From the NCBI GenBank assembly GCA_964522435.1, contig CAZFUL010000005.1, positions 21,568-85,567 of the forward strand: a stretch of 64,000 bases of DNA. The letters run 5' to 3'. Numbering within the stretch: the first letter of the stretch is position 1; the number at the start of each line of letters is the position of its first letter. The notes under the pieces are model-generated. The model searched no databases. It saw nothing but the letters and a program-made list of their open reading frames with translations, and was not told where the DNA came from. The position numbers and the translations under genes were made by a program. This document shows, piece by piece, positions 2,283-25,316 of this stretch. The stretch is from an uncultured Gammaproteobacteria bacterium. GTDB lineage: Bacteria > Patescibacteriota > Patescibacteriia > Magasanikbacterales > UBA922.

Positions 2283-2288
2283 AAATAA

Positions 2289-9507: not shown

Positions 9508-9513
9508 GGAGTA

Positions 9514-10373: not shown

Positions 10374-10379
10374 CTCCCG

Positions 10380-10900: not shown

Positions 10901-10991
10901 CTGTGCTGTCCAGCGTTACGCATCTGGGAATGGTTCTCAGTGCGTTAAAGACGTCATCCACATCTGTGGATGTTTGACAGAGGAGTGCCCC

Positions 10992-11255: not shown

Positions 11256-11735
11256 CCCCACTTCTGGGGTAACCATCCCTCAGCAAGGCTAGCTGAGGAT
11301 TACGATGGTCAACGATAGCCAAAAAAATGGAGGTACGTAACAATCACGTACCGTGATATAGCTTGGTGGAGAACGCTCCACCACCAGGCCCTGCGCAGCC
11401 CCCTCGGAGCGGGGGGCGAAAACGAAGATCGGTTGGGACTTCGCGTCTTTCCCAACCACGGCAGAGCAGGTGGCCAACTACCTGCAATCAAGCACTCGGA
11501 GTAAGGGAAGTATGCACATGCTTCCCACTCCACTATTCATCTCAAGTTTGTTGAGGTGAGTAGTGGAGGTTCCGTCTACTCCCGATTGAATCGGGATTTG
11601 ATGGATAAAACTGTTCATTAAAAATAACAGCCACACTCAGAAAAAGAGTTCTTTGAAAAAAGGAATGTTTTTCTGAGTGTGGTTTTTGCATTTCAACCAA
11701 CGCTGGAAATTCCAGCCGCAACCAGGAGGTGACTC

Positions 11736-12767
11736 ATGGACAAGGCGGCAGGGAATGTTCCAGGCTCGCCAAATATATTCCCGATCGGGGCCTGGAAATG
11801 GCTCGTGGTCGGGGAAAAAGTAGACCTCGACGCTATTCTGGCGTTGTACATTATGGGCATCCGCCCATGGTACGACATCCGGGTGGTGTCGGGGTCGGCG
11901 ACGGGTGCAGAGCTCGCGGATTCCCGCGTGCTCTGCATCGAAGTTGGAGGGAGCGGCCGGGTGGAAGAAGGAAACTTCGACCACCATGGTAGCTCCGGAG
12001 TTGTTGAATGCGCCAGCCGTCAGGCTTGGTGCATTTGGCAGAAAGAACAAGAACAGCGCGCGCGGATCCTCAACGGGTTGGTCGATTATGTCGGCCTCCT
12101 TGATGAAGGGCACCGTCGCGCCGAGTCCGGACAGGTTGCGTTTCCCTCGTTGACGCAACTCTTTTCCGGCATGCTCCTCTCTGTGCGTAAGCCTGAGGAG
12201 CAAATTCAACAGGGCTTGCTGTTGATCGACGCTGCTGTCCGCGTTGGTCTGAACCCGTTCCTTGAGAGCGGGAGCAAGTTGTTTGAGGTTCTGGACAGTG
12301 CCCGGCTGTGGGCTGCCACCAAGCGTGCGCATGAAAAGAATGGCGAAGCCATTCTGGCGAACGCAACGTGGCTCACCAGTCGGGAAGGGCGCCGGGTCGC
12401 GGTCATTGAGACCACCTGGTTCGGCGCCCCTGGTGCGTTGCAGGGGGCTGGGGCAGATCTCGTGATCGCCCTGAATCCTCGCCACTGTGTGAACGTAGCG
12501 GATTATTTTCGCAAGTTCACGGTGGCAGCGCATCGAGAAGCAGGCATTTCGGTTCTTCCTGCCCTGCCCGAGCTGAATCAGCTCGAGCTTGGATGGGACG
12601 GGCCTGGCCACGGCACAATCATCGGGTCACCCCGAGGAAAGAGCAGCTGCCTGAGTATGTCTCAGGTGGTAGCCGTGGTCTTTCGGCAAATTTTTGGGGA
12701 AGCGTTGCAGATCGATGAGATTTGCAACACCCCGGAAATTTTGCCGGAGGAATGCCTGGCGGCCTAA
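11736..12767 (+). CDS. DHH-superfamily phosphoesterase-like protein
   Basis: Strong RBS (AGGAGGT) 7 nt upstream and high GC3. Motifs DLDAILAL (DxDAxGS-like), NFDHHG (DHH) and GPGHG (GGGH-like) appear in DHH/DHHA1 order. Confidence 0.5.
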   Translation: MDKAAGNVPGSPNIFPIGAWKWLVVGEKVDLDAILALYIMGIRPWYDIRVVSGSATGAELADSRVLCIEVGGSGRVEEGNFDHHGSSGVVECASRQAWCIWQKEQEQRARILNGLVDYVGLLDEGHRRAESGQVAFPSLTQLFSGMLLSVRKPEEQIQQGLLLIDAAVRVGLNPFLESGSKLFEVLDSARLWAATKRAHEKNGEAILANATWLTSREGRRVAVIETTWFGAPGALQGAGADLVIALNPRHCVNVADYFRKFTVAAHREAGISVLPALPELNQLELGWDGPGHGTIIGSPRGKSSCLSMSQVVAVVFRQIFGEALQIDEICNTPEILPEECLAA

Positions 12768-12881
12768 CAGCCGCTCCCCATCTGGTTGGGGGTGAGGTAA
12801 TCAGACCCGTTTGCTTGCACGGGTAATGCAACAAGCACACGATGAATCTCCCAGCGCAAACAAAGTAGCGAAAACTGCGAA

Positions 12882-13433
12882 ATGATTGCCAAAATGTTTC
12901 CGGGTAAAAACTCCGCCCGGGAAGTTTACACACAGAGGCAACTCTGGCACATGCGTGCATATTGTGTAGACTGGCTCAATTACGAGCAACATTCCTCCTT
13001 TTCCTTTCCGGGCGGAGCGCCTGGAAGAGGAGGGGGAGCATGCGTCGTGCATACCTCTACTCAGGATGACATCTTGAATGCCACCCAACATATCCCGACC
13101 GCCGAGCAGTTCGCTGCCGGCGTGATCGAACCCTGTTCGGAGGTGAAGGAGCGTATCGTCGTGCTTCTTACCTTCAACAAAATCCCTTCGCAAACTGAGG
13201 TTCTCGATCGGGCGCGTGCTTTGGCCGCGCTTGTGAAAGAACAGGGGTACAACGCCGCCATGATTGGTGGCGTCGCCTACCTGATGCCTCCCTTTGAGCG
13301 GGAGCTGCGTCGGGTGGGCGTGATCCCGCTGCATGCGTTCACCGAACGACGTGCGGTGGAGAAGCACACCCCCGAAGGCGTGGTGAAGACGAACGTCTTC
13401 GTCCACGTCGGTTTTTTTGAGGGGATTGAGTAA
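12882..13433 (+). CDS. hypothetical protein
   Basis: 183-aa ORF in the island on the same strand as its neighbours. No motif recognised. The start is uncertain and may be Met24. Confidence 0.4.
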   Translation: MIAKMFPGKNSAREVYTQRQLWHMRAYCVDWLNYEQHSSFSFPGGAPGRGGGACVVHTSTQDDILNATQHIPTAEQFAAGVIEPCSEVKERIVVLLTFNKIPSQTEVLDRARALAALVKEQGYNAAMIGGVAYLMPPFERELRRVGVIPLHAFTERRAVEKHTPEGVVKTNVFVHVGFFEGIE

Positions 13434-13918
13434 AAAAAAAGAAAGGAAAAAAAGATGAGAAGATAGCGCGCCACTCACTTGGGCGCAAGGCATAAATACA
13501 ACTGAGGGGTGCCGTATCACCCCCTGCAAAACCATTCTCGTCTATACGGAGATAGAGCATGGCGATTGGTCCACGTTAAGGATGCACTCGGATTCGGCTT
13601 TGCACAAAGTCGATTCCACCGGAATATTTTTCTTAGACAGAAGAATATTGGGGTGGGATAGAATGCGACTGTTCTTTAAAAAATTATCCGCCTTCGTCAC
13701 CTTCTGGTGGCTACGGCGGACAAAGATAGCGTGTGCTCAAAAAGATTTTTGGCAAACAGAAATTTTTTTGAGCATACGCTCGTTTCCTACTCGGCAGGCA
13801 TGGTGTCTCGCCGGGTTAAACCAGGAACTGACCCCACTGAGTTGGGGAAAAAATGGGACAGCAACCCCATCAGTTCCCGCCGCATGTTCACGCGGCGTTA
13901 CTCTCTTTGGAGAGAAAC

Positions 13919-14857
13919 ATGAACAACTTCAAGACCTTGTCCTTCCTCCTGGGCCTCCAGCCCAGCGATCCGGCCTCCGTCATGGAGGTCGCCCCCACCC
14001 TCAACCTCGGGGCCGACGACAAGGTCGTGCCCCAGCTCGAGGCCGCCCTCCGGGCGGCCGGCCTCGAGGGCCTGGCCCTCGAGCGCATCGTGTTCCCCGG
14101 CAACGGGGCGGCGGCGATCGCCATGGTCGCCCTGTACGAGGGTGCGCAGGGGATGCAGCTGCCCACCCATGTGGTAGCGACGGCCCCCTTCAAGGGCAAC
14201 GCGGAGGTCGGTGAGTTCAACCTCGCCAACCTCCGTCACAACGAGGCCCGCAGCCTCCGGGACGAATTCGAGACCGACGAAGAGAATGCCACCGCCAACG
14301 GCGCGTGGCTCCTGCTCGACGGCTCGGGGCGCCCCGTGCCCAACCAGATCCTCCTGGATCTGATGCGGGAGACCGCCGGTGCCACCGACATCACGGTCGT
14401 GCCGTTGGGCATGCCCGCCCAGCGCAGCGTCACCGAGCCTTGGAAGGCCGCGGACGGTTCGACCACCACGGTCGACCGCCTGCGCGCCCTGCTCGCGGAC
14501 GGCGCCTTCACCCGCGCCGACCTGATGTCCGGGCGGGTGGCCTTCCTGCCCCCCGGGATGGGCACCGCGGCGCTCTGCGACGCGGCGATCATCTACGGCG
14601 TGGCCGAGTCCTGGCCCACCGTGGTACGGCAGGCTGGAACGGCGCCCTTCCCCTTCGCCGAGCTGGTGCGCGTGCACGAGCTGCGCCAGCTGGGCGCGCA
14701 GATCGCGGCCGAGCTGAAGACCGCCGAAGCCCCGGTGCTGGTGCCCCGTCACCTCCTGAACGAGGTGGTCGAGGCGCTGCAGACCCGCAACGAGGAGGGG
14801 GCGGACTACGGTGAGCTCCTCGACGAGCTCACCACCCTCCTCGCCCGCGGCCGCTAG
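13919..14857 (+). CDS. hypothetical protein (313 aa)
   Basis: A GGAGAG RBS precedes the ATG at 13919. High GC3 and no recognised domain. Confidence 0.55.
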   Translation: MNNFKTLSFLLGLQPSDPASVMEVAPTLNLGADDKVVPQLEAALRAAGLEGLALERIVFPGNGAAAIAMVALYEGAQGMQLPTHVVATAPFKGNAEVGEFNLANLRHNEARSLRDEFETDEENATANGAWLLLDGSGRPVPNQILLDLMRETAGATDITVVPLGMPAQRSVTEPWKAADGSTTTVDRLRALLADGAFTRADLMSGRVAFLPPGMGTAALCDAAIIYGVAESWPTVVRQAGTAPFPFAELVRVHELRQLGAQIAAELKTAEAPVLVPRHLLNEVVEALQTRNEEGADYGELLDELTTLLARGR

Positions 14858-15000
14858 CCCACATGGTTCCCCAACTGGAACCGCAGTAACGCCAAAATCC
14901 TTCGTGACATGAGTTGGCATGTTACAAGGTAGGATGGCTCTCCTGGAACTTCTCCAATGAGCCACGCAACGGAGAGCGGAAATCTCCATGCACTCGGGAC

Positions 15001-15067
15001 GGCTTGCAATGCACAACGCAAGCCATTCCCTTTATCGCTCTAAGAAATATCTTGGGTCGATAAAGGG
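15001..15067 (+). terminator. two consecutive perfect hairpins (ggcttgc..gcaagcc and ccctttatcg..cgataaaggg) at a GC transition
   Basis: Read directly. They sit where the high-GC DNA gives way to the AT-rich insert. Confidence 0.5.
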
Positions 15068-15122
15068 GATACAAAAAAACAATCCCTGTTGAGACTGTTC
15101 TTTAAAAAAATGTATTGAAACA

Positions 15123-15590
15123 TTAGACCCGCATGAGGTCGACTTTTTCTTCGACTCGCTGTTGACGTAAACTCACTGCGGCAAGGTCTGATTCTTGTTT
15201 TTGATAGAGGCCGATAAAGTCATCAACATGATTGTTGATTTCATGACGAAGGACAGCAATATCAGTTTTGAGTTCAGTTCTGACCAAAGTAATTTCTTGG
15301 TATAGCTCGGTTTTTGCTGATCGGATTTCTTTGTTCATATCCTTTCTTACCGATGTAATTTCTTGGCTGAGCTCCTTTTTTACCGATTGTATTTCTTGAT
15401 TGAGTTCTGTTCTTACTGATGTAATTTCTGTTTGTAATTCTTTTTGAAAGCGATTGATTTTTTTATCAAGTCTTTGTTCTACCTGAAAAAGATCGTCTTT
15501 GGTGGCAGCGTTATCTTTGAGAAAATCAATGGCTTCTCGATTTTCGTGAACGGCTTGGAGGATATCTCTGAGAGTTGGCTCGTGTTCCAT
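15123..15590 (-). CDS. coiled-coil hendecad-repeat protein, paralog of 9514..10077
   Basis: Repeats ELQTEITSVRT / ELNQEIQSVKK / ELSQEITSVRK, an ATKDD motif and an N-terminus MEHEPTLRDILQAV. It is low-GC and on the minus strand, embedded inside the high-GC island. Confidence 0.55.
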   Translation of the reverse strand: MEHEPTLRDILQAVHENREAIDFLKDNAATKDDLFQVEQRLDKKINRFQKELQTEITSVRTELNQEIQSVKKELSQEITSVRKDMNKEIRSAKTELYQEITLVRTELKTDIAVLRHEINNHVDDFIGLYQKQESDLAAVSLRQQRVEEKVDLMRV

Positions 15591-15954
15591 AGAAGAAGAC
15601 AGGTACCTAAATAATATATATACCATATCACAAACAAAAAAAAGAGACTATCAAAAAAATAAAAAAATTCGAAAATGCGCGATTGCTGATAGCTATTCAC
15701 GAGGAGTGGAATATTATCAGGAGTTGCGACAAGTATATACGGCAGTTCCTTACAAAAAAATATTTATGGTGAACAGCCTTCCACCACTCAATTAAGAGTA
15801 GAACAAGATAGATTACCCTATCTTGCTTTTTGCTTTTAGTTGAGTGGTGAAAGGGAAGAGAGACAAAAAAGCCGTCTCCCTCTAACACCATTAAACCGTC
15901 CCGCAAACTGGGGCGTCCGGCTGCTCGCCGGCTCTTTCAAAACGAGGAGGGGAA

Positions 15955-16509
15955 ATGAGCGCACATATGATGCGGTGGTTTGAGTTTTTGATGATCCCGC
16001 GCAACATGCTTGTGTTGGGATTGAGCGTCGGCCTCCTGGTCGCCATCATCGGCGGCTGGGACATTCTCGAGCCCACGAGCGGACTCGCCACCCTGGCCTT
16101 CGCTGCCGCCACCTGGTGGCAGACGAAGAAAAAGGCCAAGGCTCGCTACGCGAACATCGAGGGCGAGGATTTCATCATCGTTCTCGAGCTCAAAAGGACG
16201 GTGGTGGAGTCGATGACGAAGCAGTTTGGTCGGGCACCCGACCAGGTGCTCTTTGTCAAAAAATTGATCGGCACCATCGAGTTGACTACTGAAGAACACT
16301 GGGAAACACTCGTACGGGCTGTATGGGAGGTGATGTCCTCCCATCAGGATAAAAATATCTTATTTGCCAGTGACGTTCCCGGGCAACTCTGGGCATGTCT
16401 CGGACAGATGGCCGGGATGGACCGTCTCCGAGTCAAATGGCTCGGGTACTTCAATGGTCAAATCGATGAGAGCTGTCCTCGCCCCCGAGGTGATTGGATG
16501 TTGCCATGA
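15955..16509 (+). CDS. membrane-anchored hypothetical protein (N-terminal TM helices)
   Basis: GAGGAGG RBS and two predicted TM segments. It overlaps the next gene by 16 nt (ATGTTGCCATGA), suggesting translational coupling. Confidence 0.55.
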   Translation: MSAHMMRWFEFLMIPRNMLVLGLSVGLLVAIIGGWDILEPTSGLATLAFAAATWWQTKKKAKARYANIEGEDFIIVLELKRTVVESMTKQFGRAPDQVLFVKKLIGTIELTTEEHWETLVRAVWEVMSSHQDKNILFASDVPGQLWACLGQMAGMDRLRVKWLGYFNGQIDESCPRPRGDWMLP

Positions 16510-16976
16510 TTTGGTGCCTCCGCTCTGGCGAATCCGTGCGGGATCGGGATGATTCCCACCTGCACGGGGACGTCGTGAGGTACCTGCCCGAAGTGTTGGC
16601 TGCCACCAATTCGCGGGGGCAGGCAAGCATTGTTCGGGAGCACCGCTTTCCCAGGGTCGTTGGTGTGAAGAATGTGGTGCAGACCAACCAGTCTGACAGC
16701 ATTCTCTTCGCCCAACGGCCGGGGAGAGCGGGCTTATCGCGGTTCGTGTTGAACCGTCGCCCGGAACCCACCAATTGGGTTACGGTCATTCTGCGCCAGC
16801 AACCAACTGGCGAGTACATGATCGTATCTGCTTGGTGCGGACCGGCGACGACCCACGAACCGTGGGACAAGTACGCGACCCTGTCAGTCAGCCGCCGGTT
16901 CTGGAGCACCCACGCGATTGTGTGGGGCACCGAACCGGCGGACGAAGAAACCATAACCACAACCTGCCCCTGGTGA
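16494..16976 (+). CDS. hypothetical protein (160 aa)
   Basis: Coupled to the upstream gene and on the same strand as the MoxR/VWA pair. Confidence 0.45.
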   Translation: MDVAMIWCLRSGESVRDRDDSHLHGDVVRYLPEVLAATNSRGQASIVREHRFPRVVGVKNVVQTNQSDSILFAQRPGRAGLSRFVLNRRPEPTNWVTVILRQQPTGEYMIVSAWCGPATTHEPWDKYATLSVSRRFWSTHAIVWGTEPADEETITTTCPW

Positions 16977-17179
16977 ATGTGGGCAGAAAAAAGGAGGCAC
17001 TCGAGGCTCGTTATGATATGCACATTCATACGAGCCGGCTTCACGAGTAGTGATTGCAAATGCAATGACTACTGATGAAGCCGCAACAGTAGCAGACCTG
17101 CTGCTGTGTGGTGTGTTCTTGAAAATCGAAAACAGTTTTTTGACATCCTCGATTTGATCGGGGAGAGGAGGAAGAGGCC

Positions 17180-18448
17180 ATGAAGCCGGTAATCGCTACC
17201 ATTCTGACTGCGGCGCTTGCGCTGCGGACGAAGATTGTGGAAACTCAGCGCGCCCTTGCGGGGGCGCTGGTCGAGCGTGAGGACGAAGTCCTCGCCTGCC
17301 TGGTCGCCATGGTCTGCGATCAGGCGGTGTTCTTCTATGGCCCGCCCGGCGTGGCCAAGACCTTCGTGGCCGAGCTCTTGCTCAAGGCCATCGAAGGTGC
17401 CACGTACTACACTGCCCTCATGCCGGGCGTGGCCGACCCTGACGACCTGTTCGTCGAGGGGATCTCGGTGGTGAAAATCGATGAGGGTGGCGGCCATATC
17501 CGTACCATCATCGAAAAAACACCTGGCAGAGCGGCGCTCGTCAACGGTGTCCTGCTCGATGAGCTCTTCAAGGTGGACGATCCACGTGTCCTCCAGGCGC
17601 TCCTGGATTTGACCTTGTCGGACGGTGTGCGCCTGGAAGGCCGGCGTCTGGCCGACCAGGCGCACCTCGTGATGGGCATCTCGAACGAAACTCCCAATTC
17701 TGGGAGCGAGTTCGATGCCCTTTGGGCACGGTTCGTCCTGCGTTTGTCCGTCAAGCCCCTCGGGGCTGACGGGCGTAAGCGCATGATCCGTATCCAAGAG
17801 GCTGCGGCTCGTAATGGCGGAGCAGGAGTCGTCCGCCCAGCGAATCCACTCACGTTGCAGGACATCGCGACCCTGCAGCAGGCTGCGGCGCAGGTCGACA
17901 TCGGAGATGACATCCTCGACCTCATCGAGGAGACCATCGACGAACTGTTCAGCCAAGATGCGGATGCCTTCCGCTGGCTGAAGCAGGACGATCGCCGTCG
18001 TGGCCTGATGGTCAAGGCGTTGAAGGCGCACGCCTTGATCCACGGACGGACGGCCGTTTCCAAGGCCGACCTGGTCATTCTGAAATGGATGATGTGGAAT
18101 CATCCAGATCAAATCGAGCAGGTCGAGGAAAAGGTGAAGCCGCTTGCGGCGACACCTTTCTCCGAAGCCTTGGAGGAGATCGATGACCTCCTCGCCCCCA
18201 ACGGCAAGGTGTGGAGGGCGTTTGAGAAGCGGGAAATGACCTGCTTCACGGACGCCGCCGCTCAGATCAACCGTTTGAAGGACACCGTCCTTCCTCGGTT
18301 GATCAGCCAAGCCAGTGGGATTGAACTCAGCCGTCTGGAAGCCATGAAGAATGGTGTCCAACGGCTGTTCACGGGAGTGATGGCGCGCATCTCGGGCCAG
18401 GAGTCCGAGATGAGCTGGGACGCTTTCGTCCAGCTCCTCAAGAGCTGA
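17180..18448 (+). CDS. MoxR-family AAA+ ATPase
   Basis: Walker A GPPGVAKT, Walker B VLLDELF, a sensor-1 Asn region, an Arg-containing second region of homology (SRH) and a C-terminal helical lid. A GAGGAGG RBS is present. Confidence 0.8.
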   Translation: MKPVIATILTAALALRTKIVETQRALAGALVEREDEVLACLVAMVCDQAVFFYGPPGVAKTFVAELLLKAIEGATYYTALMPGVADPDDLFVEGISVVKIDEGGGHIRTIIEKTPGRAALVNGVLLDELFKVDDPRVLQALLDLTLSDGVRLEGRRLADQAHLVMGISNETPNSGSEFDALWARFVLRLSVKPLGADGRKRMIRIQEAAARNGGAGVVRPANPLTLQDIATLQQAAAQVDIGDDILDLIEETIDELFSQDADAFRWLKQDDRRRGLMVKALKAHALIHGRTAVSKADLVILKWMMWNHPDQIEQVEEKVKPLAATPFSEALEEIDDLLAPNGKVWRAFEKREMTCFTDAAAQINRLKDTVLPRLISQASGIELSRLEAMKNGVQRLFTGVMARISGQESEMSWDAFVQLLKS

Positions 18449-18458
18449 GGAGGGAGAC

Positions 18459-20192
18459 ATGTCTTCGTCCGAAAAAAGGCGAGGAGCCCCACCGCTCCGA
18501 AGGCAAGATCTCGAACCTGCTCTGGTCACTGATGCCGATTCCGTAACGGTACGGCGTTATTTGTCCAGGCGGTCTGAGACCCCTGCCATCTGGGGGCTCG
18601 AACAGAGCGCAAATATCTCGGGTGCTCCCGCTGCACTCGCAGATACCTTCAACGTCTTGCTGTCCTCAGCGGTCGGCGTCAAGCCAGAGGACAGTGTCAA
18701 ACCTGCGCAACGCTATTGGCGAGGGATCCTTGATCAATCAATGGAGACCTCGCCGTTCGAGGCGTTGCGTGGAAAAACCCGTGGCGATGAACTCTTGTCT
18801 ACGATTGGCACCTTGGAGGCGGCGAACACCGTCTTCGGTCTGGTGCCCAAACAGGACAAAGAGAAACTCGATAAGTTGGCCCAGGCGCAAGCCGAGGCTG
18901 ATGAATTCGAGGCTGATGCGCAAAAAGCAGAAATGGACGCGCAAGCGTTTCAAGATCTGCTCGCGCAGATGCAAGCCGCGGTACAAACCGAAGACGGGGC
19001 TGGTCAGGGAAGCGGACAACCGCAACCTGGTCAGCCTAGTGTTGGTCAAGCAGGAGGAAAAGCTTCGGGTAAGTCCTCCAGCGGATCGGCGCAGATGAGT
19101 GCTGAACAAGCACAACAAATCGCTGATCAATTGACCAAGGCGCAGAACAAAGCAGCAGAAGCCCGTGAATTGGCAGATGCTGCTCAAGAAGAGCTTCAGG
19201 CCAAAGCTGACGCATTGATGGGGAAACCCGGAACTGCAGAGGCAGAAGCCAAGCTCGACGAACTGCGTCGACTCGGTCGTGCGGCCATGCAACAGGCAAA
19301 CGAAACGGTCGGAGAAGTCCGAGATACCGTGGCGGCCTGGGGCGTGGAAGCTGGCGAGATTGCCAACCTGGATCCGACGGAAGCGATGGCGCTTCTCGAG
19401 CGCATGAAGAGCAATCAGCATTTCAAAAAATTTGCTGAGTTGCTTGGACGCTTGCGTCGGGCCGCGGAGAAAAAGGCTCGGATGGAAGAAAAGGGTAAAA
19501 GCACACGCGTGCCCCGAATCCATCTGGGTCGAGATATCGGCCGAGCACTGCTCAGTGAGGTCGCTGCCTTCGCGATGGGTGATATCCATGAGGATATGGT
19601 CACCGAGCGATGGGCACGCGGTACATTGCGACAGCGCGGAGCCGTGACCAAGCGCCAACAAAGCGCAAGCGAAGGCCCGATGGTGATCTGCGAAGATGCC
19701 TCGGGATCGATGGCTGGTGAGCCCTATCGCTGGGCAAAGGCCGTCACCTTGGCGCTGGCCACACTTGCTCGTGAAAAGAAGCGGGGCTACGGCTGGGTCA
19801 TGTTCGATGAACGCGTTCAGCGTTCGCGCGCATATCCTGCCGGAAAACTCGGAGCGCGTGACATCCTCGAAATTGCCGAAACGGCAGCAACCGGTGGTGG
19901 CACAAACTTTGAGGCACCGCTTCTCCAGGCAAAGAAAATGATCGACGAAGAAGGTCTTGAAAAAGCCGACATCGTTCTGATCACGGATGGGGACTGCGCG
20001 GTTTCGCAGCAGTTCCTCGAAAAATTCTTGGCCTGGAAGCAAGAACGGTCGGTGACAGTGATCTCCGTGGTTATCAATGTGGGAAGCTATGCTTGCTCCA
20101 CTGCCACGGTTGATAAATTCTCCGACCGCGTCGAGCGCGTCTCGAGCTTCACCGCGGAAGCGGCTGAAGCTCAGGTGTTCGCCCACCTCTGA
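18459..20192 (+). CDS. von Willebrand factor A (VWA/MIDAS) domain protein with a long N-terminal coiled-coil, Q/A/G-rich region
   Basis: C-terminal VWA with MIDAS DASGSM, GGGTNF and LITDGD motifs. It is the obligate partner type for MoxR ATPases, as in RavA-ViaA, CoxD-CoxE and NorQ-NorD. Confidence 0.8.
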   Translation: MSSSEKRRGAPPLRRQDLEPALVTDADSVTVRRYLSRRSETPAIWGLEQSANISGAPAALADTFNVLLSSAVGVKPEDSVKPAQRYWRGILDQSMETSPFEALRGKTRGDELLSTIGTLEAANTVFGLVPKQDKEKLDKLAQAQAEADEFEADAQKAEMDAQAFQDLLAQMQAAVQTEDGAGQGSGQPQPGQPSVGQAGGKASGKSSSGSAQMSAEQAQQIADQLTKAQNKAAEARELADAAQEELQAKADALMGKPGTAEAEAKLDELRRLGRAAMQQANETVGEVRDTVAAWGVEAGEIANLDPTEAMALLERMKSNQHFKKFAELLGRLRRAAEKKARMEEKGKSTRVPRIHLGRDIGRALLSEVAAFAMGDIHEDMVTERWARGTLRQRGAVTKRQQSASEGPMVICEDASGSMAGEPYRWAKAVTLALATLAREKKRGYGWVMFDERVQRSRAYPAGKLGARDILEIAETAATGGGTNFEAPLLQAKKMIDEEGLEKADIVLITDGDCAVSQQFLEKFLAWKQERSVTVISVVINVGSYACSTATVDKFSDRVERVSSFTAEAAEAQVFAHL

Positions 20193-20199
20193 AAACCAA

Positions 20200-20400
20200 A
20201 AACTCCCCCAGCATTGCTGACAACTGGGGGAGCCTGAAAAACAGTCAGTCAGTGTTTCTCGCCTGGCAATGAGAAAACACTGTCAAAAAGTTACGCCAAA
20301 GGAGATTCGTGGTGACTCCAAATAATTTCATCACACAACCGGTCGTTTGTTTTGCTGCACACACTGCAAACGACCCTTCAACTTTCTTTCTGATAGGAAT
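20200..20400 (+). repeat. structured intergenic element, copy 1 (three hairpins), paralogous to 23233..23428
   Basis: The 3' core of ~105 nt is ~96% identical between the copies. The upstream hairpins are diverged with compensatory changes. Confidence 0.6.
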
Positions 20401-20527
20401 GTCGGGGAGAAAGAGAAGAGATTCCTGGAATCGGACGCTGCAACCGATTCACACACAAAACCGTTCCAGTATGGAAAGCTCTATCCGTACTACGCAGAAG
20501 GAACAAGCCTCTTGAAAGGAGGAGAGC

Positions 20528-20839
20528 ATGCAGTGGACTATTGTATTTTTTTCATCGTGGGATCACCCCGTCGATGAACGCCCTGGCCTGGTGCCCGAAG
20601 GGTGTCTGGGTCTGTACCTCATTGATGTGAGGCACGATTCCGAAGAATTCTTGCTCGAGGGGTATCTTCCTATGGGGCAAGAAGTCGACGCACAGGTCTG
20701 CTTCGACTTGAAAAGTACGGAGCAGGTGTACCGAGGGGTGGGGGCAGAGTCTCCCATCGCGGAGTTCCGCAACGCCCAAGGTGAGGTGGTCGTCCGCCTC
20801 ATCTGGGATCAGGAGACGGGGGAGTACCGGCGGGAGTGA
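20528..20839 (+). CDS. hypothetical small protein (103 aa)
   Basis: GGAGGAG RBS, downstream of repeat copy 1. Confidence 0.45.
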   Translation: MQWTIVFFSSWDHPVDERPGLVPEGCLGLYLIDVRHDSEEFLLEGYLPMGQEVDAQVCFDLKSTEQVYRGVGAESPIAEFRNAQGEVVVRLIWDQETGEYRRE

Positions 20840-21117
20840 TCTCGCCGTAGCCATAGAAAAAGAAAGGGGGAACAGTGGTGATCTCGTGCCCTCCGAGATC
20901 GCCTTCCCAAACCACTTCCACAGACAGGTTCTGATAGATATGTACTCTCTCTCATATCTGTTACGAAATTATCTGTATGGGGAAGTGATTTGGGGAAACC
21001 CTAAAATTCGTTTTTCGCTCTAACAATCCTGTTGGCACGAAAAACATTGGTCTTTCAAATCAAAAATAAACCAGCCCCCCGACTTTAGGTCGGGGGGTGT
21101 AGACAAGGAGATTTGCG

Positions 21118-23223
21118 ATGTCGACCACCACCCCAGCTCCGGAAAAGATCATTTCCCTCATCACTTCTGAAGAGGGAAAAGATTTTAAGACAAATGGGGA
21201 AGTGGTGGGAAACTATCGCTACTCCATTGTTTTTTTCCCGCGCGGGGAAAAGTGTGAGCCGGGGAAAGAATACCGGCTTGAGCTGACTCCTTTACGGGGT
21301 CAAGACGGAAACCCTCGAACCGACAAGCGCGGAAAGGTGATGTACACATCACGCCCCGCTGCCGTGGAGATCACCGAGACCTGGGAATCCTTGCCCGACG
21401 GCAATATCCAGCAGCTGCAAGTCCGCACGGACTGGCGCTTGCAGGAAGTTGGTCGCCGGGTCATCGACGGCCCCCGCCCACCTGCGGCGCGCGAAGCTGC
21501 CGAGTTGTTCCCCACCACCCGAAAGGAGTTGGTGTTTGGCAGCTCGGTTGCCGACACGCACCTGGCAGAGGTTGTCGTGCACACCTTTCCCATCGAACAG
21601 GAAGAGGTGAAGGCCGGCAAAATCAGCTGGGTGCGCAGCGGGGAACGCCAGGTGGAGGACTCTCCCGTCCTCTACCTGGTGGACAGCCTTGTAGGCGTGC
21701 TGTATACCGGCACGCTCGACCTGGTGTACCCGCCGGAGCGTGACTGCTCCGTTGAGGTACGATTTACCGGAGGAAAATCCGGCACCCGCCTGTCGCTGCG
21801 CTGGGATGCTCTCCCGGCCTGGTTTCAGGCAGAGGTGCAGCGGCCGTATCCCGTCTGCCCCTGCGGCCGCAAGCGCGTGGGCTCCAACTCAGATGGCTAC
21901 GCCAAGTGCGAAAGCTGTCGGGACGAGGAAACCTGCGTGCGTTGCAACCAAGAGCGGCGCATCAACCTCATTGAGGGGCTCGCGATCTGCAAGGGTTGCG
22001 AGCCCATGGCTCGGCTTGAGGCGGAGGTACATATCCATGTGCCACAGTCCAAGCGAGCTGAGCTGGCTGCGCAAGCGGCTCGGCTCATGTCGGCGAATGC
22101 GCTTCCTGGTGATGTCGGCTACTCCCTGCTCAAAGAATTGTTGAGCGCTGAGGGGGTGGAAGGCGAAACCCAGGAAGTGTTGCTGCGGCGAGCAGATCAT
22201 GCCTGGCTCTACTTCTTCCCTACGGGAGAAGTATGGGCCAGCCACCTGCCTCTGGTGGCGCTGCAGATTTTGGCAACAGCGCTCGGCGCGGCGCAGGGCA
22301 ACGGCCTGGTCACCTTGGTGGCCTGGATGGTTAGCCCGACCTACTTTGTGGCCACGCAAGTGGAACACAAAGAGCTCTCCCTGTATTGGGAGACGCCGCT
22401 GCACAGCGTGCAGCTCGCCAAGCGGGTGCGCCAGGCGCATGCCGAGCGGCAACGCCGCCTCGATCAGATTGACGTGTTGATGGCAGGGCTCATGAACACT
22501 GATTTCAATGACGAGTGGCGGCTCAAACAGCTCCGCTCGGCGACGCTTCTTGATCAAGAGGATGGGGCTAGCGATAGCCAAATCCTCTTGGAAATAGAAA
22601 GCACGCAGGCGAAGCGGAAGGCGGAACGCGAGGAGCTCGTGGCAGTGAAAGCTGCGGCAAAGCCGATCGCGGAGAAGATCTTTGCTGAGGAGCATGATCT
22701 TCCCAAGGCCTGCCGCAAGGCCAACCGCGACAGCCAAGCCGAGGCGGTTGAGCACGCCTATGGCTGGATCACCAGCCGTCGTCGCTGGGAGCACGATGAG
22801 CCGGTCGTCCAGAATTGGCTGGACTGGGAAAATCTTGAGCGCCTCCGGGAGTTTGTACAAAAGTACTCCTGGGTGCTCGAGCCCATCCGTCCGCTCGTTG
22901 TGCCGCCTCGCCCTCGTTGGGGCGATCTCCCGAACCCGAGCGCCGTCCCGACCCCTGCTCGCCAGAGCAACGGTACTGTGGCCACCTTCACCGATACTGG
23001 TGATGGTCGACACTTCCGTTGTTCTGCTTGTAACGGTACCCATCGGGTAACAAAAGCAGAACAGCGCAGCTACAAAGATGGCGAAGAAATTCACCTGATC
23101 TGTGGCTGTAGTGCCGAAGGAAGGGTACGGCAGGTTGTTGCTCCCGTGTCTCCCAGCACCGCTGGTGCTGGAGACATGGCTGATCAACTGGCCGCTTTGC
23201 GCAGCAAGTGGGGTGGCTCCTAG
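21118..23223 (+). CDS. large hypothetical protein (701 aa) with multiple CxxC zinc-ribbon-like clusters
   Basis: Cys clusters CPCGRK..CESC..CVRC..CKGC mid-protein and CSACNG..CGC near the C-terminus. A GC hairpin and an AAGGAG RBS lie upstream. No known catalytic motif. Confidence 0.65.
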   Translation: MSTTTPAPEKIISLITSEEGKDFKTNGEVVGNYRYSIVFFPRGEKCEPGKEYRLELTPLRGQDGNPRTDKRGKVMYTSRPAAVEITETWESLPDGNIQQLQVRTDWRLQEVGRRVIDGPRPPAAREAAELFPTTRKELVFGSSVADTHLAEVVVHTFPIEQEEVKAGKISWVRSGERQVEDSPVLYLVDSLVGVLYTGTLDLVYPPERDCSVEVRFTGGKSGTRLSLRWDALPAWFQAEVQRPYPVCPCGRKRVGSNSDGYAKCESCRDEETCVRCNQERRINLIEGLAICKGCEPMARLEAEVHIHVPQSKRAELAAQAARLMSANALPGDVGYSLLKELLSAEGVEGETQEVLLRRADHAWLYFFPTGEVWASHLPLVALQILATALGAAQGNGLVTLVAWMVSPTYFVATQVEHKELSLYWETPLHSVQLAKRVRQAHAERQRRLDQIDVLMAGLMNTDFNDEWRLKQLRSATLLDQEDGASDSQILLEIESTQAKRKAEREELVAVKAAAKPIAEKIFAEEHDLPKACRKANRDSQAEAVEHAYGWITSRRRWEHDEPVVQNWLDWENLERLREFVQKYSWVLEPIRPLVVPPRPRWGDLPNPSAVPTPARQSNGTVATFTDTGDGRHFRCSACNGTHRVTKAEQRSYKDGEEIHLICGCSAEGRVRQVVAPVSPSTAGAGDMADQLAALRSKWGGS

Positions 23224-23232
23224 AACTAAACC

Positions 23233-23428
23233 TTTCCCGGTTGATGCTGGTATCCCGGGGGAGTCTGAAAAAATTTACCAGTGCGTGTCTCTTGCTTGGC
23301 AACAGGAAGACACGGAAAAAAAGAAACGCCAAGGGAGATTCGTGGTGACTCCAAATAATTTCATCACACAACCGGTCGTTTGTGTTGCTGCACACACTGC
23401 AAACGACCCTTCCACATTCTTTCTGTCA
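23233..23428 (+). repeat. structured intergenic element, copy 2
   Basis: See copy 1. It follows the 701-aa gene by ~10 nt and precedes the next gene. Confidence 0.6.
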
Positions 23429-23575
23429 CAACGCAGTTTGGTACGGAGAGAATGAGAAGTGTTTCCGCCCGAGAGAAGAACGGGCGGTGTGTGTGGTCTC
23501 GTCAGTGGGTTACTGATTGAGGCCTTTCCAACCCAGTCCCCGCTACCGTGGGAGAAAACGGAGAAGGAGAAGATC

Positions 23576-24109
23576 ATGGCTCGTCGTGATGAGCCCATGT
23601 CGCGTGAGAAGTGGCTCGCGCAGCGAAACAATGGACGAATCTTTGAGAGCTGGGAGGATTTCCTCTCGGCCATCAAAGAGGCACCCACGGTATCCATGGG
23701 GAACGAGCCGGAGGGGACCATTCGTTTCTCCTCGTGCTTCGTTCTCGCACACGGTCCGACCCGCTATGTGGTGTACACGCTCGGCACCCCAATCTTTGGG
23801 GTGAGCGTGGGGCAACAAGGCGTTTCTGAGCTCTCCTGGTTCCCTCTGGAGCCGGTCGAGTTCACGCCCGAAATGCTTCTCACCCTCGTTGGGGTGGGGT
23901 GTAAGTTCAACGACACTGGGAGCGAGATTCGCTCCCTCACGGGCTGGGAAGCCATGCTCCACCTGGAGCAGCGCTACAACTGGCTCGTGCAATCCGGCAA
24001 GGTGGATCCTCGCGGTGGTGGGCTGCTCTCACCGAGTTCGGCCTTCTTCCGTGAAGGCGAAGACATGGCCGATCTCGAACAGCAGATCGCTGCGCTCGAG
24101 ATCGCCTGA
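23576..24109 (+). CDS. hypothetical protein (178 aa from the RBS-supported start)
   Basis: GGAGAAGGAG RBS. The C-terminus GEDMADLEQQIAALEIA resembles the C-terminus of the 701-aa protein (GAGDMADQLAALRSKWGGS). Confidence 0.5.
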   Translation: MARRDEPMSREKWLAQRNNGRIFESWEDFLSAIKEAPTVSMGNEPEGTIRFSSCFVLAHGPTRYVVYTLGTPIFGVSVGQQGVSELSWFPLEPVEFTPEMLLTLVGVGCKFNDTGSEIRSLTGWEAMLHLEQRYNWLVQSGKVDPRGGGLLSPSSAFFREGEDMADLEQQIAALEIA

Positions 24110-24671
24110 AGCGTGTAACCAAAAACAAAGGAGAAAATAGCAAAAAATAAAAAAGCTGCGCCATAATTCAAAGGCGTAGAGGTGGGTGACCTCGCGGGAT
24201 TCCTAAAATTCCCAACAGAGCCAACCCCGACGAGGTCGGGGAGAATTGCGCCCATGCTATCACGGGCGCGGACTAGAGAGTCCGAAGTGCGCAAGCACAA
24301 GTCAAGCATCTGGAGCAGTTGCTCCTCGTGCGATAGTTGCTGAGCTTATCCTATTCCAATCGAGAATGCCCAAAACGGTCACGTATGTGACTTCTCGATA
24401 TACAAGCGCTTGTATAGGCTTGTCGGAGTACCCGGGGTAGGCCAGTACCAATTTAGGGTACTGTTCTTTTTCTCTTCCGCTTCACGCCAAGGGGGGTGGG
24501 CGGAGTGATGAACTGTTGCTACAAGCGACAATTCGTCCAATAACGACGGGAGTGTTTATTGCAAACACCCCCGGTTCGACTATCATTTTCTTTTTTATAA
24601 AAGGAAGTGATTGAGAATATATATAATCAATCAGCTGCCCCACCAGCGGATTTTTTATTTTCCAAAATTAC

Positions 24672-25316
24672 TTAGTTCTTCAACAACAGCGAAATAGGAT
24701 CACTCTCATCCAGCACTTTTCTCGCCGGCGAATATTGTCTGCCATATTCAATCATACGCACGGTAAATAAAAACCATTCTTCTTTTGGTAATAATTGCAT
24801 CAGCTCTTGCTCAATTTTTTTTGGATCACTGTGTGTGGTTAATCCAAATTTTTGTGCCAGGCGTGTGACATGCGTATCAACCGCAATCCCTTCTGCAATA
24901 CCGTAGGCTTGCCCCAACACAACATTTGCGGTTTTTCTTCCCACGCCTGGAAGGAGCCTCAACTCGGTAATTGTTTTTGGGAGCACACGATTGAATTGCT
25001 CATCAAATATCTTTGCGGCTGCCAAAATATGTTTTGCTTTTGTTTTGTAAAAACTTACTGAATGCATGTCTTCTGCAAATACGTCCAACTCAGCAGTTAA
25101 ATAATCATCGAGTGTTTTATATGTTTGAAATAAGGTCTTGGTTACCACATTTACTTGTTTGTCCGTTGTTTGCGCGGAGAGCACCACGGCGACAACGAGT
25201 TCCCAATCATTACTAAAATTGAGGCTGGGTGTTGGTGCAGGGAATAATTTTTTTAGTGTATCGAGAACGATAGTTGCACGCTGTTGCGTAGTCATATGAA
25301 GGGGGGAGTATATCAC
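24672..25316 (-). CDS. nth: endonuclease III-like DNA glycosylase (HhH-GPD)
   Basis: HhH-GPD motif LPGVGRKTANVVL and a catalytic Asp region. No C-terminal Fe-S cysteine cluster is seen. Confidence 0.8.
   Translation of the reverse strand: MIYSPLHMTTQQRATIVLDTLKKLFPAPTPSLNFSNDWELVVAVVLSAQTTDKQVNVVTKTLFQTYKTLDDYLTAELDVFAEDMHSVSFYKTKAKHILAAAKIFDEQFNRVLPKTITELRLLPGVGRKTANVVLGQAYGIAEGIAVDTHVTRLAQKFGLTTHSDPKKIEQELMQLLPKEEWFLFTVRMIEYGRQYSPARKVLDESDPISLLLKN

What the first reader, a model, noticed from the sequence alone, without database searches (positions are those of the whole stretch)
21118..24109. A 701-aa multi-zinc-ribbon protein and a downstream protein that shares its C-terminal DMAD...AAL tail
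The 701-aa ORF has at least three CxxC...CxxC clusters (CPCGRK/CESC, CVRC/CKGC, CSACNG/CGC) and no recognisable enzymatic motif. Its C-terminus (GAGDMADQLAALRSKWGGS) resembles the C-terminus of the next gene product (GEDMADLEQQIAALEIA). A shared short C-terminal tail could be a recognition or degron motif. One candidate reader is the adjacent MoxR/VWA machinery, but that is speculative. Each of the two genes is preceded by a copy of the same structured intergenic element, which suggests co-regulation.
Basis: seen in the sequence. Interest (0 to 1): 0.65.

Follow-up and report, generated by a model that had tools for sequence, protein, structure and literature searches.

The report
Third partner of a MoxR–VWA operon
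The 701-aa zinc-ribbon protein belongs to an undescribed protein family that always sits right after a MoxR ATPase and a VWA protein on GC-rich islands of Patescibacteria genomes; its C-terminal tail is a real family motif, but the downstream 177-aa protein does not share it.

Summary
The ORFs, the cysteine clusters, both C-termini and a repeated structured intergenic element are all present.

The 701-aa protein ("X") has no Pfam, PHROG, PADLOC, NCBIfam, PDB-sequence or Foldseek match. An exhaustive HMMER search nevertheless found 118 relatives. They share residues ~9-450, including eight invariant cysteines that form two zinc ribbons.

In every locus where it could be assessed, gene order is MoxR, VWA, X. 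This holds for 11/11 loci found through X and 22/22 found through VWA, mostly Patescibacteria MAGs. The operon always lies in DNA about 13 GC points richer than its flanks.

The 701-aa tail (…QLAALRSKWGGS) ranks 1 of 1982 ORF C-termini against a profile built from other family members. About three quarters of full-length relatives end in a similar basic helix on a disordered linker, resembling the MinD membrane-targeting sequence.

The 177-aa protein's tail is acidic and ranks 600/1982. Its only homologue lies in an island with no MoxR, VWA or X. The resemblance is most likely chance.

The repeat has only two copies. The first precedes a 103-aa cassette ORF inserted between VWA and X, not X itself.

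Neighbouring island genes are ring-nuclease-like or SAVED-like, which points to a conflict or counter-defence context.

The parts
17180..18448 (+). MoxR-class AAA+ ATPase (422 aa), first gene of the conserved triad
   Evidence: Pfam bpMoxR 7.8e-14, AAA_lid_8 2.3e-11 and AAA_5 2.6e-8. NCBIfam RavA 1e-26, far below the equivalog cut-off. phrog_19600 ATPase. Walker A GPPGVAKT and Walker B LLDE are visible in the translation. It precedes VWA in 7/7 metagenome and 21/21 GTDB loci with enough upstream DNA.
18459..20192 (+). VWA protein (577 aa, ViaA/CoxE-like), second gene of the triad. The MIDAS residues are intact and the C-terminus is conserved (…FSDRVERVSxFTAEEAExxxFxHL).
   Evidence: Pfam VWA_2 4.5e-9 and VWA_CoxE 1.4e-6. 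NCBIfam ViaA 1.3e-14. D413, S415, S417, T482 and D510 are invariant in 7 homologues. It lies directly upstream of X in all assessable loci.
20193..20400 (+). Repeat copy A: a terminator-like hairpin followed by the ~170-nt structured element, right after the VWA stop
   Evidence: covariance-model score 211 bits; only two copies in 589 kb searched.
20528..20839 (+). 103-aa cassette ORF inserted between VWA and X. This insertion is specific to the window.
   Evidence: It is 57% identical to a 101-aa ORF in L001 (6024-6326), which lies in a different order there. No family hit. In the other loci the VWA-to-X spacing is 8-570 nt, against 925 nt here.
21118..23223 (+). X: 701-aa third component of the triad and the subject of the finding
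   Evidence: 118 relatives at E<=1e-3, 77 at E<=1e-30. AF2 model has pLDDT 82, above 90 for residues 10-450. No Pfam in 40 members. No PDB sequence match. No PDB or BFVD fold match.
21856..21999 (+). Two zinc ribbons of X (C247/C249…C264/C267 and C273/C276…C291/C294), flanked by conserved basic residues (R251, R253, K263, R268, R275)
   Evidence: All eight Cys are invariant in 40 sequences. Coordinates.
22987..23109 (+). Third zinc ribbon of X (FTDTGDGRHFRCSAC…ICGC), a mobile C-terminal module
   Evidence: It matches independently the C-termini of P0098, P0105, P0108, P0116, P0117, P0119 and P0120 at 43-49% identity. It is present in only some X homologues.
23173..23220 (+). C-terminal tail of X (DMADQLAALRSKWGGS): a predicted helix on a disordered linker
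   Evidence: AF2 predicts helix 686-698 after a segment at 666-684 with pLDDT <50. PSSM built without this sequence gives 29.6 bits, rank 1/1982. Tails of the same type occur in about three quarters of full-length relatives.
23224..23433 (+). Repeat copy B, right after the X stop
   Evidence: 217 bits.
23576..24109 (+). 177-aa cassette ORF (the 'downstream protein'), not a conserved partner of X
   Evidence: A single homologue, P0003 (77% identical), lies on L001/L002 without MoxR, VWA or X. No family hit. AF2 model is unusable, pLDDT 44. Its leader (23407-23569) precedes a different gene in L001.
24117..24626 (+). Conserved, densely structured non-coding stretch that travels with the 177-aa cassette
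   Evidence: 93.6% identical to L001/L002 over 512 nt. Fold z = -6.4 on the + strand and -5.3 on the - strand. No Rfam match.

Best explanation
The 701-aa ORF (X) is the system-specific third subunit of a three-gene operon, MoxR AAA+ ATPase - VWA protein - X. The operon is carried on GC-rich genomic islands of Patescibacteria (CPR bacteria).

Shown:
- The gene order is invariant.
- X has a conserved core of ~450 residues: an all-beta N-terminal part, two invariant zinc ribbons ringed by basic residues, and a helical domain.
- X has a variable, module-shuffled C-terminal half.
- Most full-length members end in a short basic helix at the end of a disordered linker.

Inferred:
- MoxR-VWA is a remodelling pair of the NorQ/NorD and RavA/ViaA kind: a hexameric ATPase, plus a VWA adaptor whose intact MIDAS site grips a carboxylate on the target. 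X is the partner or client it acts on.
- The zinc ribbons probably bind nucleic acid.
- The C-terminal tail (…[LM]xxAL[RK]xK[WF]GG, with variants …DLSxLFGG+basic and …MAxAxRKAGL) most likely works as a MinD-type membrane-targeting amphipathic helix that tethers X, and with it the complex, to the membrane.
- The neighbouring genes are ring-nuclease-like (AAA-Csx3, Csx15-like, Csx20-like) and SAVED-only. This suggests the island serves cyclic-oligonucleotide-based conflict, either defence or counter-defence by a mobile element.

The 177-aa gene and the 103-aa gene are separate, shuffled cassettes. The similarity of the 177-aa tail to X is coincidental.
For: Family and core:
- There is no known domain or fold.

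Synteny, tested in both directions:
- Loci found with X have VWA directly upstream in 11/11 cases and MoxR upstream of that in 7/7.
- Loci found with VWA have X directly downstream in 22/22 cases and MoxR upstream in 21/21.
- The hosts are labelled Patescibacteria lineages in 16/22.

Machinery:
- MIDAS is intact and invariant.
- The general MoxR/VWA mechanism is taken from PMC9976466 and PMC13036017.

Tail:
- It is family-specific (nearly all top scores are X homologues).
- It is basic: net charge +1.9 against +0.5 for controls, p = 8e-7.
- It is a helix after a low-confidence linker.
- The E. coli MinD MTS is KGFLKRLFGG (PMC5471200). It scores in the top ~1% against the tail profile.
- The ZnR3+tail module occurs on P0119, and the related P0116 carries ZnR3 but ends …GWVKK with no tail. 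Neither has VWA directly upstream. This favours a generic target such as membrane over a VWA-specific one.

Conflict context:
- AAA-Csx3 1e-47 to 1e-49, SAVED 1e-11 to 1e-15, Csx15 about 1e-7 in island homologues.
- The window's own genes give weaker hits.
- Csx3, Csx15 and Csx20 are cOA ring nucleases, also used by mobile elements as anti-CRISPRs.
- A large serine recombinase lies next to X in L009 and L003.

177-aa protein as an unrelated cassette.
Against: - No physical or co-folding evidence links X to MoxR or VWA. The tools give no multimer model.
- The membrane-helix reading rests on resemblance. The hydrophobic-moment test was only marginal (p = 0.027), and the window's own tail scored low, as did MinD's. 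The MinD similarity is modest (4.8 bits).
- Nucleic-acid binding by the zinc ribbons is inferred only from conserved basic residues.
- About a quarter of full-length relatives, and all ~220-aa short forms, lack the tail. The tail is therefore not essential to the triad.
- No cyclase, Cas10 or obvious effector was found in the islands, so the conflict role is contextual only.
- Six of the 22 genome loci carry 'Gammaproteobacteria/Pseudomonadales' labels in third-party assemblies.
Confidence: 0.5

Rival explanations
1. The X tail is a docking or recognition peptide for the operon's own machinery. Its near-universal acidic residue (D/E four to five residues before the AL) would ligate the VWA MIDAS metal, or the tail would enter the MoxR pore.
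For: Synteny with MoxR-VWA is strict. MIDAS is intact. Known MoxR/VWA targets are engaged through surface carboxylates (PMC9976466). Type 1, 3 and 4 tails carry a conserved D/E. The tail is a tethered helix, typical of short linear motifs.
Against: Type 2 tails (TAMAQAMRKAGLL) often have no acidic residue. Tail-less long and short X forms still follow MoxR-VWA. The tail module occurs on P0119 without an adjacent VWA gene. The four tail flavours share physicochemistry rather than sequence, which fits a lipid target better than a protein pocket.
Confidence: 0.25
2. MoxR-VWA is an assembly chaperone of a mobile element or virus, and X is its structural client, for example a coiled-coil or filament-forming protein. 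The model is Acidianus two-tailed virus, whose MoxR-VWA pair is needed for tail assembly.
For: MoxR and VWA hit phage families phrog_19600 and phrog_24053. They resemble pairs in Bacillus jumbo phage 0305phi8-36 and Moorella phage MTATph1. X has a long helical/coiled-coil region at 441-587. Serine recombinases sit beside X in two loci. The virion-assembly precedent is cited in PMC7824862.
Against: No X or VWA relatives were found in IMG/VR contigs or GenBank phages. The phage MoxR-VWA pairs have no X-like neighbour. The islands are 8-14 kb and show no capsid, portal or terminase hits. The X C-terminal half is module-shuffled, which is unusual for a structural protein.
Confidence: 0.15
3. One reading: the 701-aa and 177-aa proteins share a functional C-terminal recognition or degron motif and are co-regulated by the repeated upstream element.
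For: Both end in a predicted helix containing DMAD…AAL. A copy of the repeat lies upstream of the 177-aa gene, and another lies upstream of the 103-aa/701-aa stretch.
Against: BLASTP gives E = 0.79. PSSM rank is 600/1982. The net charges are opposite. The orthologue changes DMAD to DMAA and AAL to AAT. The 177-aa homologue occurs without MoxR, VWA or X. The extreme C-terminus is not conserved (LEIA versus TENA), as a degron would require. Repeat copy A precedes another ORF.
Confidence: 0.05

Closest known systems
MoxR-vWA-centric ternary conflict systems (VMAP, iSTAND, FtsH, beta-propeller types; Kaur, Burroughs, Iyer & Aravind 2020, PMC7159879)
   Same: An adjacent MoxR AAA+ gene and a vWA gene plus a conserved, system-specific third protein. 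The third protein has one conserved part and a highly variable, module-shuffled part. The systems sit among nucleotide-signalling domains, and Csx3 fusions are reported there too. The top Pfam hit of the MoxR here is bpMoxR.
   Different: The third component is none of the four described. No VMAP, STAND, FtsH, TPR or propeller hit was found in 40 members. The VWA protein carries no C-terminal effector or propeller and ends in a conserved 25-residue tail. The hosts are reduced, unicellular Patescibacteria rather than multicellular bacteria. The operon lies in GC-rich islands.
RavA-ViaA, NorQ-NorD and CbbQ-CbbO MoxR/VWA remodelling pairs
   Same: The same two-protein engine with an intact MIDAS. 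The weak best NCBIfam hits are RavA and ViaA. The mechanism of VWA finger in the ATPase pore plus carboxylate capture of the target is the template for how this system probably works.
   Different: Scores are far below the equivalog cut-offs: 94 against 681 bits and 54 against 500 bits. No metalloenzyme client gene (Nor, Rubisco, Cox, LdcI) is nearby. The conserved neighbour is X instead.
MinD C-terminal membrane-targeting sequence (KGFLKRLFGG)
   Same: A short basic amphipathic helix at the extreme C-terminus ending in an aromatic residue followed by G-G. X-family tails read …ALRAKFGG, …DLSKLFGG and …ALRSKWGGS.
   Different: There is no homology of the proteins. The similarity is modest (4.8 bits). 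Many X tails continue with a Lys/Arg-rich extension. Membrane binding is untested.
Effector-associated domains (EADs) of conflict systems (PMC7159879)
   Same: A small module sits on the core component and also on otherwise unrelated proteins. Here the module is ZnR3, with or without the tail, found on X and on P0116, P0117, P0119 and P0120.
   Different: Homotypic interaction is untested. The module is a zinc ribbon rather than one of the ten described EADs.
Type III CRISPR ring nucleases (Csx3/Crn3, Csx15, Csx20) and SAVED sensors
   Same: The island neighbours of the triad match these families. Such proteins degrade or sponge cyclic oligoadenylates and are used by mobile elements as anti-CRISPRs.
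   Different: These are neighbours, not the finding itself. No Cas10, CRISPR array or effector was seen. The window's own hits are weak (E 1e-4 to 5e-6).

Membership tests
MoxR-vWA ternary conflict systems (Kaur et al. 2020) | Adjacent MoxR-clade AAA+ and vWA genes | tested here: met
   Pfam and NCBIfam hits. Adjacency holds in all loci.
MoxR-vWA ternary conflict systems (Kaur et al. 2020) | A conserved third component encoded in the same gene neighbourhood | tested here: met
   X follows VWA in 11/11 loci found through X and 22/22 loci found through VWA.
MoxR-vWA ternary conflict systems (Kaur et al. 2020) | The third component is VMAP, inactive STAND or FtsH, or the vWA is fused to a beta-propeller | tested here: not met
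   No Pfam family in 40 X homologues apart from one weak zinc-finger hit. The VWA protein has only VWA_2/VWA_CoxE. The X model has no propeller-like fold match.
MoxR-vWA ternary conflict systems (Kaur et al. 2020) | Variable effector domains fused C-terminally to the vWA component | tested here: not met
   The VWA protein ends right after the VWA domain with a conserved tail in 7/7 aligned homologues.
MoxR-vWA ternary conflict systems (Kaur et al. 2020) | Concentration in bacteria with multicellular habit | tested here: not met
   The genome loci are Patescibacteria MAGs: Paceibacterota, Saccharibacteria, WWE3, Doudna-, Harrison- and Adlerbacteria.
RavA-ViaA (equivalogs) | Score above the NCBIfam equivalog cut-offs | tested here: not met
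   RavA scores 93.9 bits against a cut-off of 681. ViaA scores 54.3 bits against 500.
Zinc-ribbon (4-Cys) modules | Two CxxC/CxC pairs spaced by 10-25 residues and conserved across homologues | tested here: met
   C247/249, C264/267, C273/276 and C291/294 are invariant in 40 sequences. The third ribbon, C635/638 and C662/664, is conserved in 7 independent C-terminal matches. Metal binding itself is not testable here.
MinD-type membrane-targeting sequence (functional class, not a homology family) | Extreme C-terminal, basic, amphipathic helix that binds anionic membrane | tested here: inconclusive
   The position, the helix and the basic charge are met. The hydrophobic moment is only marginally above controls. 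The resemblance to KGFLKRLFGG is modest. Membrane binding is not testable with these tools.
Shared C-terminal motif between X and the 177-aa protein (the finding's claim) | The 177-aa tail matches the X-family tail profile and is conserved beyond background in its orthologue | tested here: not met
   It scores -7.6 bits, rank 600/1982. The tail of P0003 is 17/21 identical, against 77% overall identity, with changes in both 'shared' elements.
TRAM domain (for the N-terminus of X) | Profile similarity to a TRAM domain | tested here: not met
   No Pfam TRAM hit. hhalign against the TRAM-bearing N-terminus of the window's RumA-like gene gives probability 3%.

The most novel reading that the evidence does not exclude
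MoxR-VWA-X is a fifth, Patescibacteria-specific type of MoxR-vWA ternary conflict system. It would be a membrane-tethered, zinc-ribbon (nucleic-acid-sensing) third component remodelled by MoxR-VWA. It is carried with a battery of cyclic-oligoadenylate ring nucleases and sponges and with large structured RNAs. The islands keep a GC content about 13 points above their hosts across the whole radiation. This would be a conserved defence or counter-defence module of episymbiotic bacteria that has not been described.
Probability: 0.3. Interest if true: 0.75.

Novelty: new variant of a known kind. Interest (0 to 1): 0.58.

Why it matters
Patescibacteria have tiny genomes and few recognised defence or regulatory systems. 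An 8-14 kb module that recurs across many of their lineages is therefore likely to matter for their biology or for their mobile elements. This one has a dedicated AAA+ remodelling engine, an uncharacterised 450-residue core fold and ring-nuclease-like neighbours. It adds a new third component to the MoxR-vWA ternary theme. It also gives a concrete, testable handle: the tail, the MIDAS site and the zinc ribbons. Finally, it exposes an unexplained compositional anomaly, with GC elevated in 22/22 loci and tracking host GC. That anomaly bears on how such islands are inherited or exchanged. For the scan itself, the lesson is that the 'shared tail' was a chance resemblance, while the real signal was the protein family and its operon.

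Tried and rejected
- Word-indexed homology searches for X, both as a single sequence and as a 40-sequence profile, returned only the query itself. Only the exhaustive HMMER search found the family.
- Pfam, PHROGs, PADLOC and NCBIfam gave nothing on X, the 177-aa ORF or the 103-aa ORF. Pfam on 40 X homologues gave nothing useful. Pfam on the other ZnR3-bearing proteins and their upstream ORF fragments gave nothing, so an initial guess that those fragments were helicase C-termini is dropped.
- The TRAM-domain idea for the N-terminus is rejected.
- X and the island DNA have no match in GenBank phages or PLSDB plasmids. X and VWA have no match in IMG/VR. Pattern search found no X in GTDB representatives, although the VWA route then found 22 loci.
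- Rfam found nothing at gathering thresholds in the whole window, and only noise at E<=1 in the island. There are no tRNA or tmRNA genes.
- A covariance model of the repeat found no further copies in 589 kb of related loci. Exact-core scans of IMG/VR for the repeat and for the 510-nt element found nothing.
- The AF2 model of the 177-aa protein is too poor to use.
- The hydrophobic-moment test of the tails was not discriminating.
- Look-ups of the source contig by exact protein failed, and cluster look-up gave no names. The window's organism is therefore inferred only from its relatives.
- A fused VWA-linker-tail AF2 run was considered and dropped, because the tool returns no inter-residue confidence or coordinates to judge an interface.


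Full report
**1. What is in the window**

The window is a low-GC (~41%) bacterial chromosome segment with rpoB/rpoC, recA, PNPase, nusA and similar genes. It carries a GC-rich island (55-70% GC) from about 10.7 to 24.6 kb. All island genes read on the + strand. A low-GC coiled-coil gene on the - strand (15123-15626) splits the island. That gene is a paralogue of the one flanking the island on the left (9514-10167). The right flank is an endonuclease-III-like gene.

The finding covers the last part of the island:
- MoxR-class ATPase, 17180-18448
- VWA protein, 18459-20192
- a 103-aa ORF, 20528-20839
- the 701-aa ORF, 21118-23223
- a 177-aa ORF, 23576-24109

**2. Checking the observation**

So are both C-termini.

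The downstream gene starts at ATG 23576 behind a GGAGAAGGAG site. This gives 177 aa, identical to the deposited product P0002. It does not start at GTG 23459.

The repeated intergenic element is real. It is 147 nt at 88% identity, or about 170 nt at 86% with gaps. It is structured:
- One hairpin keeps its pairing through three double substitutions between the copies.
- The whole first intergenic region folds with z = -3.7.

Copy A lies directly after the VWA stop codon and in front of the 103-aa ORF. The 701-aa gene has its own, different 278-nt upstream region. A covariance model found only these two copies in 589 kb of related DNA. The element is therefore not a general feature of the system.

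**3. The 701-aa protein belongs to a real, undescribed family**

No domain library recognises it. The word-indexed search found only the protein itself. The exhaustive HMMER search found 118 relatives, 77 of them at E<=1e-30, aligned over residues ~9-450.

In a 40-sequence alignment the eight cysteines of the first two clusters are invariant. So are R253 and R275, and R251, K263 and R268 are nearly so. None of the 40 has a Pfam domain.

An AlphaFold2 model built on that alignment is confident, with pLDDT above 90 for residues 10-450. It shows:
- an all-beta N-terminal part
- the double zinc ribbon
- a helical domain
- long helices over 441-587
- a third small zinc ribbon
- a low-confidence linker at 666-684
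- a terminal helix at 686-698

Foldseek found no significant match in the PDB or in BFVD. A profile search of PDB sequences found none either. A TRAM-like look of the N-terminus is not supported.

**4. The conserved context is MoxR-VWA-X**

Thirteen metagenome loci were retrieved with X. In all 11 with upstream sequence the gene directly before X is a homologue of the window's VWA protein (40-51% identity). In all 7 with more upstream sequence, MoxR precedes VWA.

The reciprocal test used VWA to query one genome per GTDB species and gave 22 loci. In 22/22 an X homologue follows VWA, and in 21/21 assessable loci MoxR precedes it. Sixteen of the 22 records are labelled as Patescibacteria lineages. 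The other six carry third-party 'Gammaproteobacteria/Pseudomonadales' labels. Two of those six (L018, L023) share the same flanking gene pair as the Patescibacteria loci, and two more (L016, L017) share one of the pair.

Other features of the pair:
- The VWA MIDAS residues are invariant.
- MoxR has intact Walker motifs.
- VWA-to-X spacing is 8-570 nt elsewhere and 925 nt in the window, because the 103-aa cassette and repeat copy A are inserted there.
- Similar MoxR-VWA pairs in two jumbo phages have no X-like neighbour.

**5. The tail**

The C-terminal 80-100 residues of X (third zinc ribbon plus tail) match the C-termini of several proteins independently of the core. Among them, P0098 ends …DLMAALRAKFGG, P0105 …DLKAALMAKWGK and P0119 …ALDALKRKWGH.

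Reading the C-termini of all relatives, about three quarters of full-length members end in a short helix-forming basic peptide. It comes in four flavours:
- …[LM]xxAL[RK]xK[WF]GG
- …TAMAxAxRKAGL[LIV]
- …DLSxLFGG followed by Lys/Arg
- …SLADVLGDLKL

Some members end at the zinc ribbon instead. The ~220-aa short forms have no tail.

A position matrix was built from 31 type-1 tails, without the window sequence. It scores the window's tail at 29.6 bits, the best of 1982 ORF C-termini from all loci. Almost all other high scorers are X homologues.

The tails are more basic than control C-termini: +1.9 against +0.5, p = 8e-7. The hydrophobic-moment test was only marginal.

The pattern resembles the E. 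coli MinD membrane-targeting sequence KGFLKRLFGG (PMC5471200). That sequence scores in the top ~1% against the tail matrix.

The zinc-ribbon module, with the tail on P0119 but without it on P0116 (which ends …GWVKK), also occurs in other GC-rich islets, next to ATP synthase genes and rpoB respectively. No VWA gene lies directly upstream in either case.

**6. The 177-aa protein does not share the motif**

- Pairwise BLASTP gives E = 0.79 for the tail segment.
- The tail scores -7.6 bits, rank 600/1982.
- Its net charge is -4.
- The only homologue (P0003, 77% identical) changes DMAD to DMAA and AAL to AAT. Its tail is no better conserved than the rest of the protein.

That homologue lies on L001/L002. 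L001 is the same chromosomal locus of a related organism: the coiled-coil gene is on the left and the endonuclease III gene on the right, at 68-80% DNA identity. Its island has other cassettes in another order and no MoxR, VWA or X.

The 177-aa gene travels with its 510-nt downstream non-coding stretch, which is 93.6% identical. Its leader stands in front of a different gene in L001. It is an independent cassette. The AF2 model of it is unusable.

**7. Wider context**

The operon's GC exceeds that of its flanks in 22/22 loci. The mean excess is 12.7 points and the minimum 5.1. Operon GC correlates with host GC at r = 0.70.

Other island genes recur:
- AAA-Csx3 fusions (PADLOC 1e-47 to 1e-49), whose C-terminal domain is the window's 160-aa ORF
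- SAVED-only proteins (1e-11 to 1e-15), the family of the window's 184-aa ORF
- Csx15-like proteins (about 1e-7), the family of the window's 334-aa ORF
- an HD_4 protein

The window's 183-aa ORF hits Csx20 weakly. Csx3, Csx15 and Csx20 are cyclic-oligoadenylate ring nucleases or sponges, and mobile elements use such proteins as anti-CRISPRs (PMC13148439; bioRxiv 10.1101/2024.09.24.614671).

A large serine recombinase follows X in two loci. Eleven loci share the same host-GC flanking pair, a GNAT-containing large protein and a TrmB-like regulator. No relatives were found in IMG/VR, GenBank phages or PLSDB plasmids.

**8. How it most likely works**

Shown:
- a strictly conserved MoxR-VWA-X triad
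- intact ATPase and MIDAS motifs
- a conserved X core with two zinc ribbons and a variable C-terminal half
- a family-specific basic terminal helix

Inferred from NorQ/NorD and related pairs (PMC9976466, PMC13036017): VWA docks on the MoxR hexamer and uses MIDAS to seize a carboxylate on a target, which is then remodelled. X is the obvious partner or client.

Inferred from the MinD resemblance, from the tail's generic physicochemistry and from its occurrence away from VWA: the tail tethers X to the membrane. The alternative, that the tail is the handle seized by VWA or MoxR, cannot be excluded. Tail-less members and acid-free type-2 tails weaken it.

The neighbours and the module shuffling fit the 'conflict system' pattern described for MoxR-vWA ternary systems (PMC7159879). 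No effector or cyclase was identified.

**9. Comparison and novelty**

The system works like a MoxR-vWA ternary system but fails the membership tests for all four described types:
- no VMAP, iSTAND or FtsH third component, and no propeller
- no effector fused to vWA
- hosts that are not multicellular

It is not a RavA-ViaA equivalog. Full-text searches found no description of a MoxR-VWA system in Patescibacteria. I classify it as a new variant of a known kind. The specific claim that drew attention, a tail shared by two neighbouring proteins, is best explained as chance.

Noticed in passing
window 24117-24626: A ~510-nt non-coding stretch between the 177-aa gene and the endonuclease III gene. 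It is 93.6% identical to L001/L002, better conserved than host genes (68-80%) and than the adjacent CDS. It is packed with hairpins: a GCAA tetraloop stem, and CCCCGAC-loop-GTCGGGG where only the loop differs between organisms. Fold z = -6.4 on the + strand. No Rfam hit. This is a candidate large structured RNA.
   Followed up: partly
window 10700-24600; loci L004-L037: The MoxR-VWA-X operon is GC-richer than its flanks in 22/22 loci (mean +12.7 points), and its GC tracks host GC (r = 0.70). Eleven loci share the same host-GC flanking genes, a GNAT-containing ~740-925-aa protein and a TrmB-like regulator. It is unresolved whether this reflects a mobile island, site-specific insertion, or a vertically inherited locus with a local GC-raising process.
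   Followed up: partly
window 11736-16976; L018, L020, L023, L026, L029: The island genes upstream of MoxR form a set related to cyclic-oligoadenylate ring nucleases and sensors. These are Csx15-like (334 aa, 13853-14857), Csx20-like (183 aa, 12882-13433, weak), SAVED-only (184 aa, 15955-16509), and the C-terminal domain of AAA-Csx3 fusions (160 aa, 16494-16976, phrog_23674). No Cas10 or CRISPR array was seen. This may be a counter-defence arsenal.
   Followed up: partly
window 9514-10167 (-) and 15123-15626 (-): Two low-GC paralogous coiled-coil genes with 33-nt periodic internal repeats. One flanks the island and one splits it. Homologues sit next to the islands in L001, L017 and L030.
   Followed up: no
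window 20306-20395 and 23339-23428 (inside the repeat): The repeat contains a possible 29-codon micro-ORF (VVTPNNFITQPVVC[F/V]AAHTANDPSTFFL) behind AAGGAG. The three differences between the copies in this stretch are two synonymous changes and one F/V change. That is too few to judge whether it is coding.
   Followed up: no
window 1827-2747, 46444-46917, 56640-57038, 57851-58639: Further small GC-rich islets (51-57% GC, GC3 up to 0.70) with short ORFs lie scattered in the low-GC chromosome. They suggest that GC-rich cassettes are inserted at many sites.
   Followed up: no
L001 1-7794 versus window 8600-25200: This is the same chromosomal locus in a related organism, holding a different cassette set and order. 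The shared cassettes (177-aa gene plus RNA-like element, and the 103-aa gene) are 87-94% identical in DNA while the flanking host genes are 68-80% identical. This points to recent exchange of cassettes.
   Followed up: partly
window 21075-21097 and 24223-24241: A GC-rich hairpin, CCCCCCGAC-loop-GTCGGGGGG, sits 5 nt before the ribosome-binding site of the 701-aa gene. A related CCCCGAC…GTCGGGG hairpin sits in the downstream structured element. A similar terminator-like hairpin follows both the VWA and the X stop codons.
   Followed up: no
L040 431-2047 (P0116); L041 478-2478 (P0119): The third zinc ribbon of X, with or without the tail, also ends unrelated large proteins. These lie in other GC-rich islets next to rpoB and next to the ATP synthase operon of low-GC hosts. 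The X C-terminal half shares further shuffled modules with these proteins (for example …YGRARRQ…, …GGHFRVMG…).
   Followed up: partly
L009 12809-14599; L003 3450-4868: A large serine recombinase (Resolvase + Recombinase + Zn_ribbon_recom) is encoded directly downstream of X in two loci. This fits an integrative mobile element in at least some lineages.
   Followed up: partly
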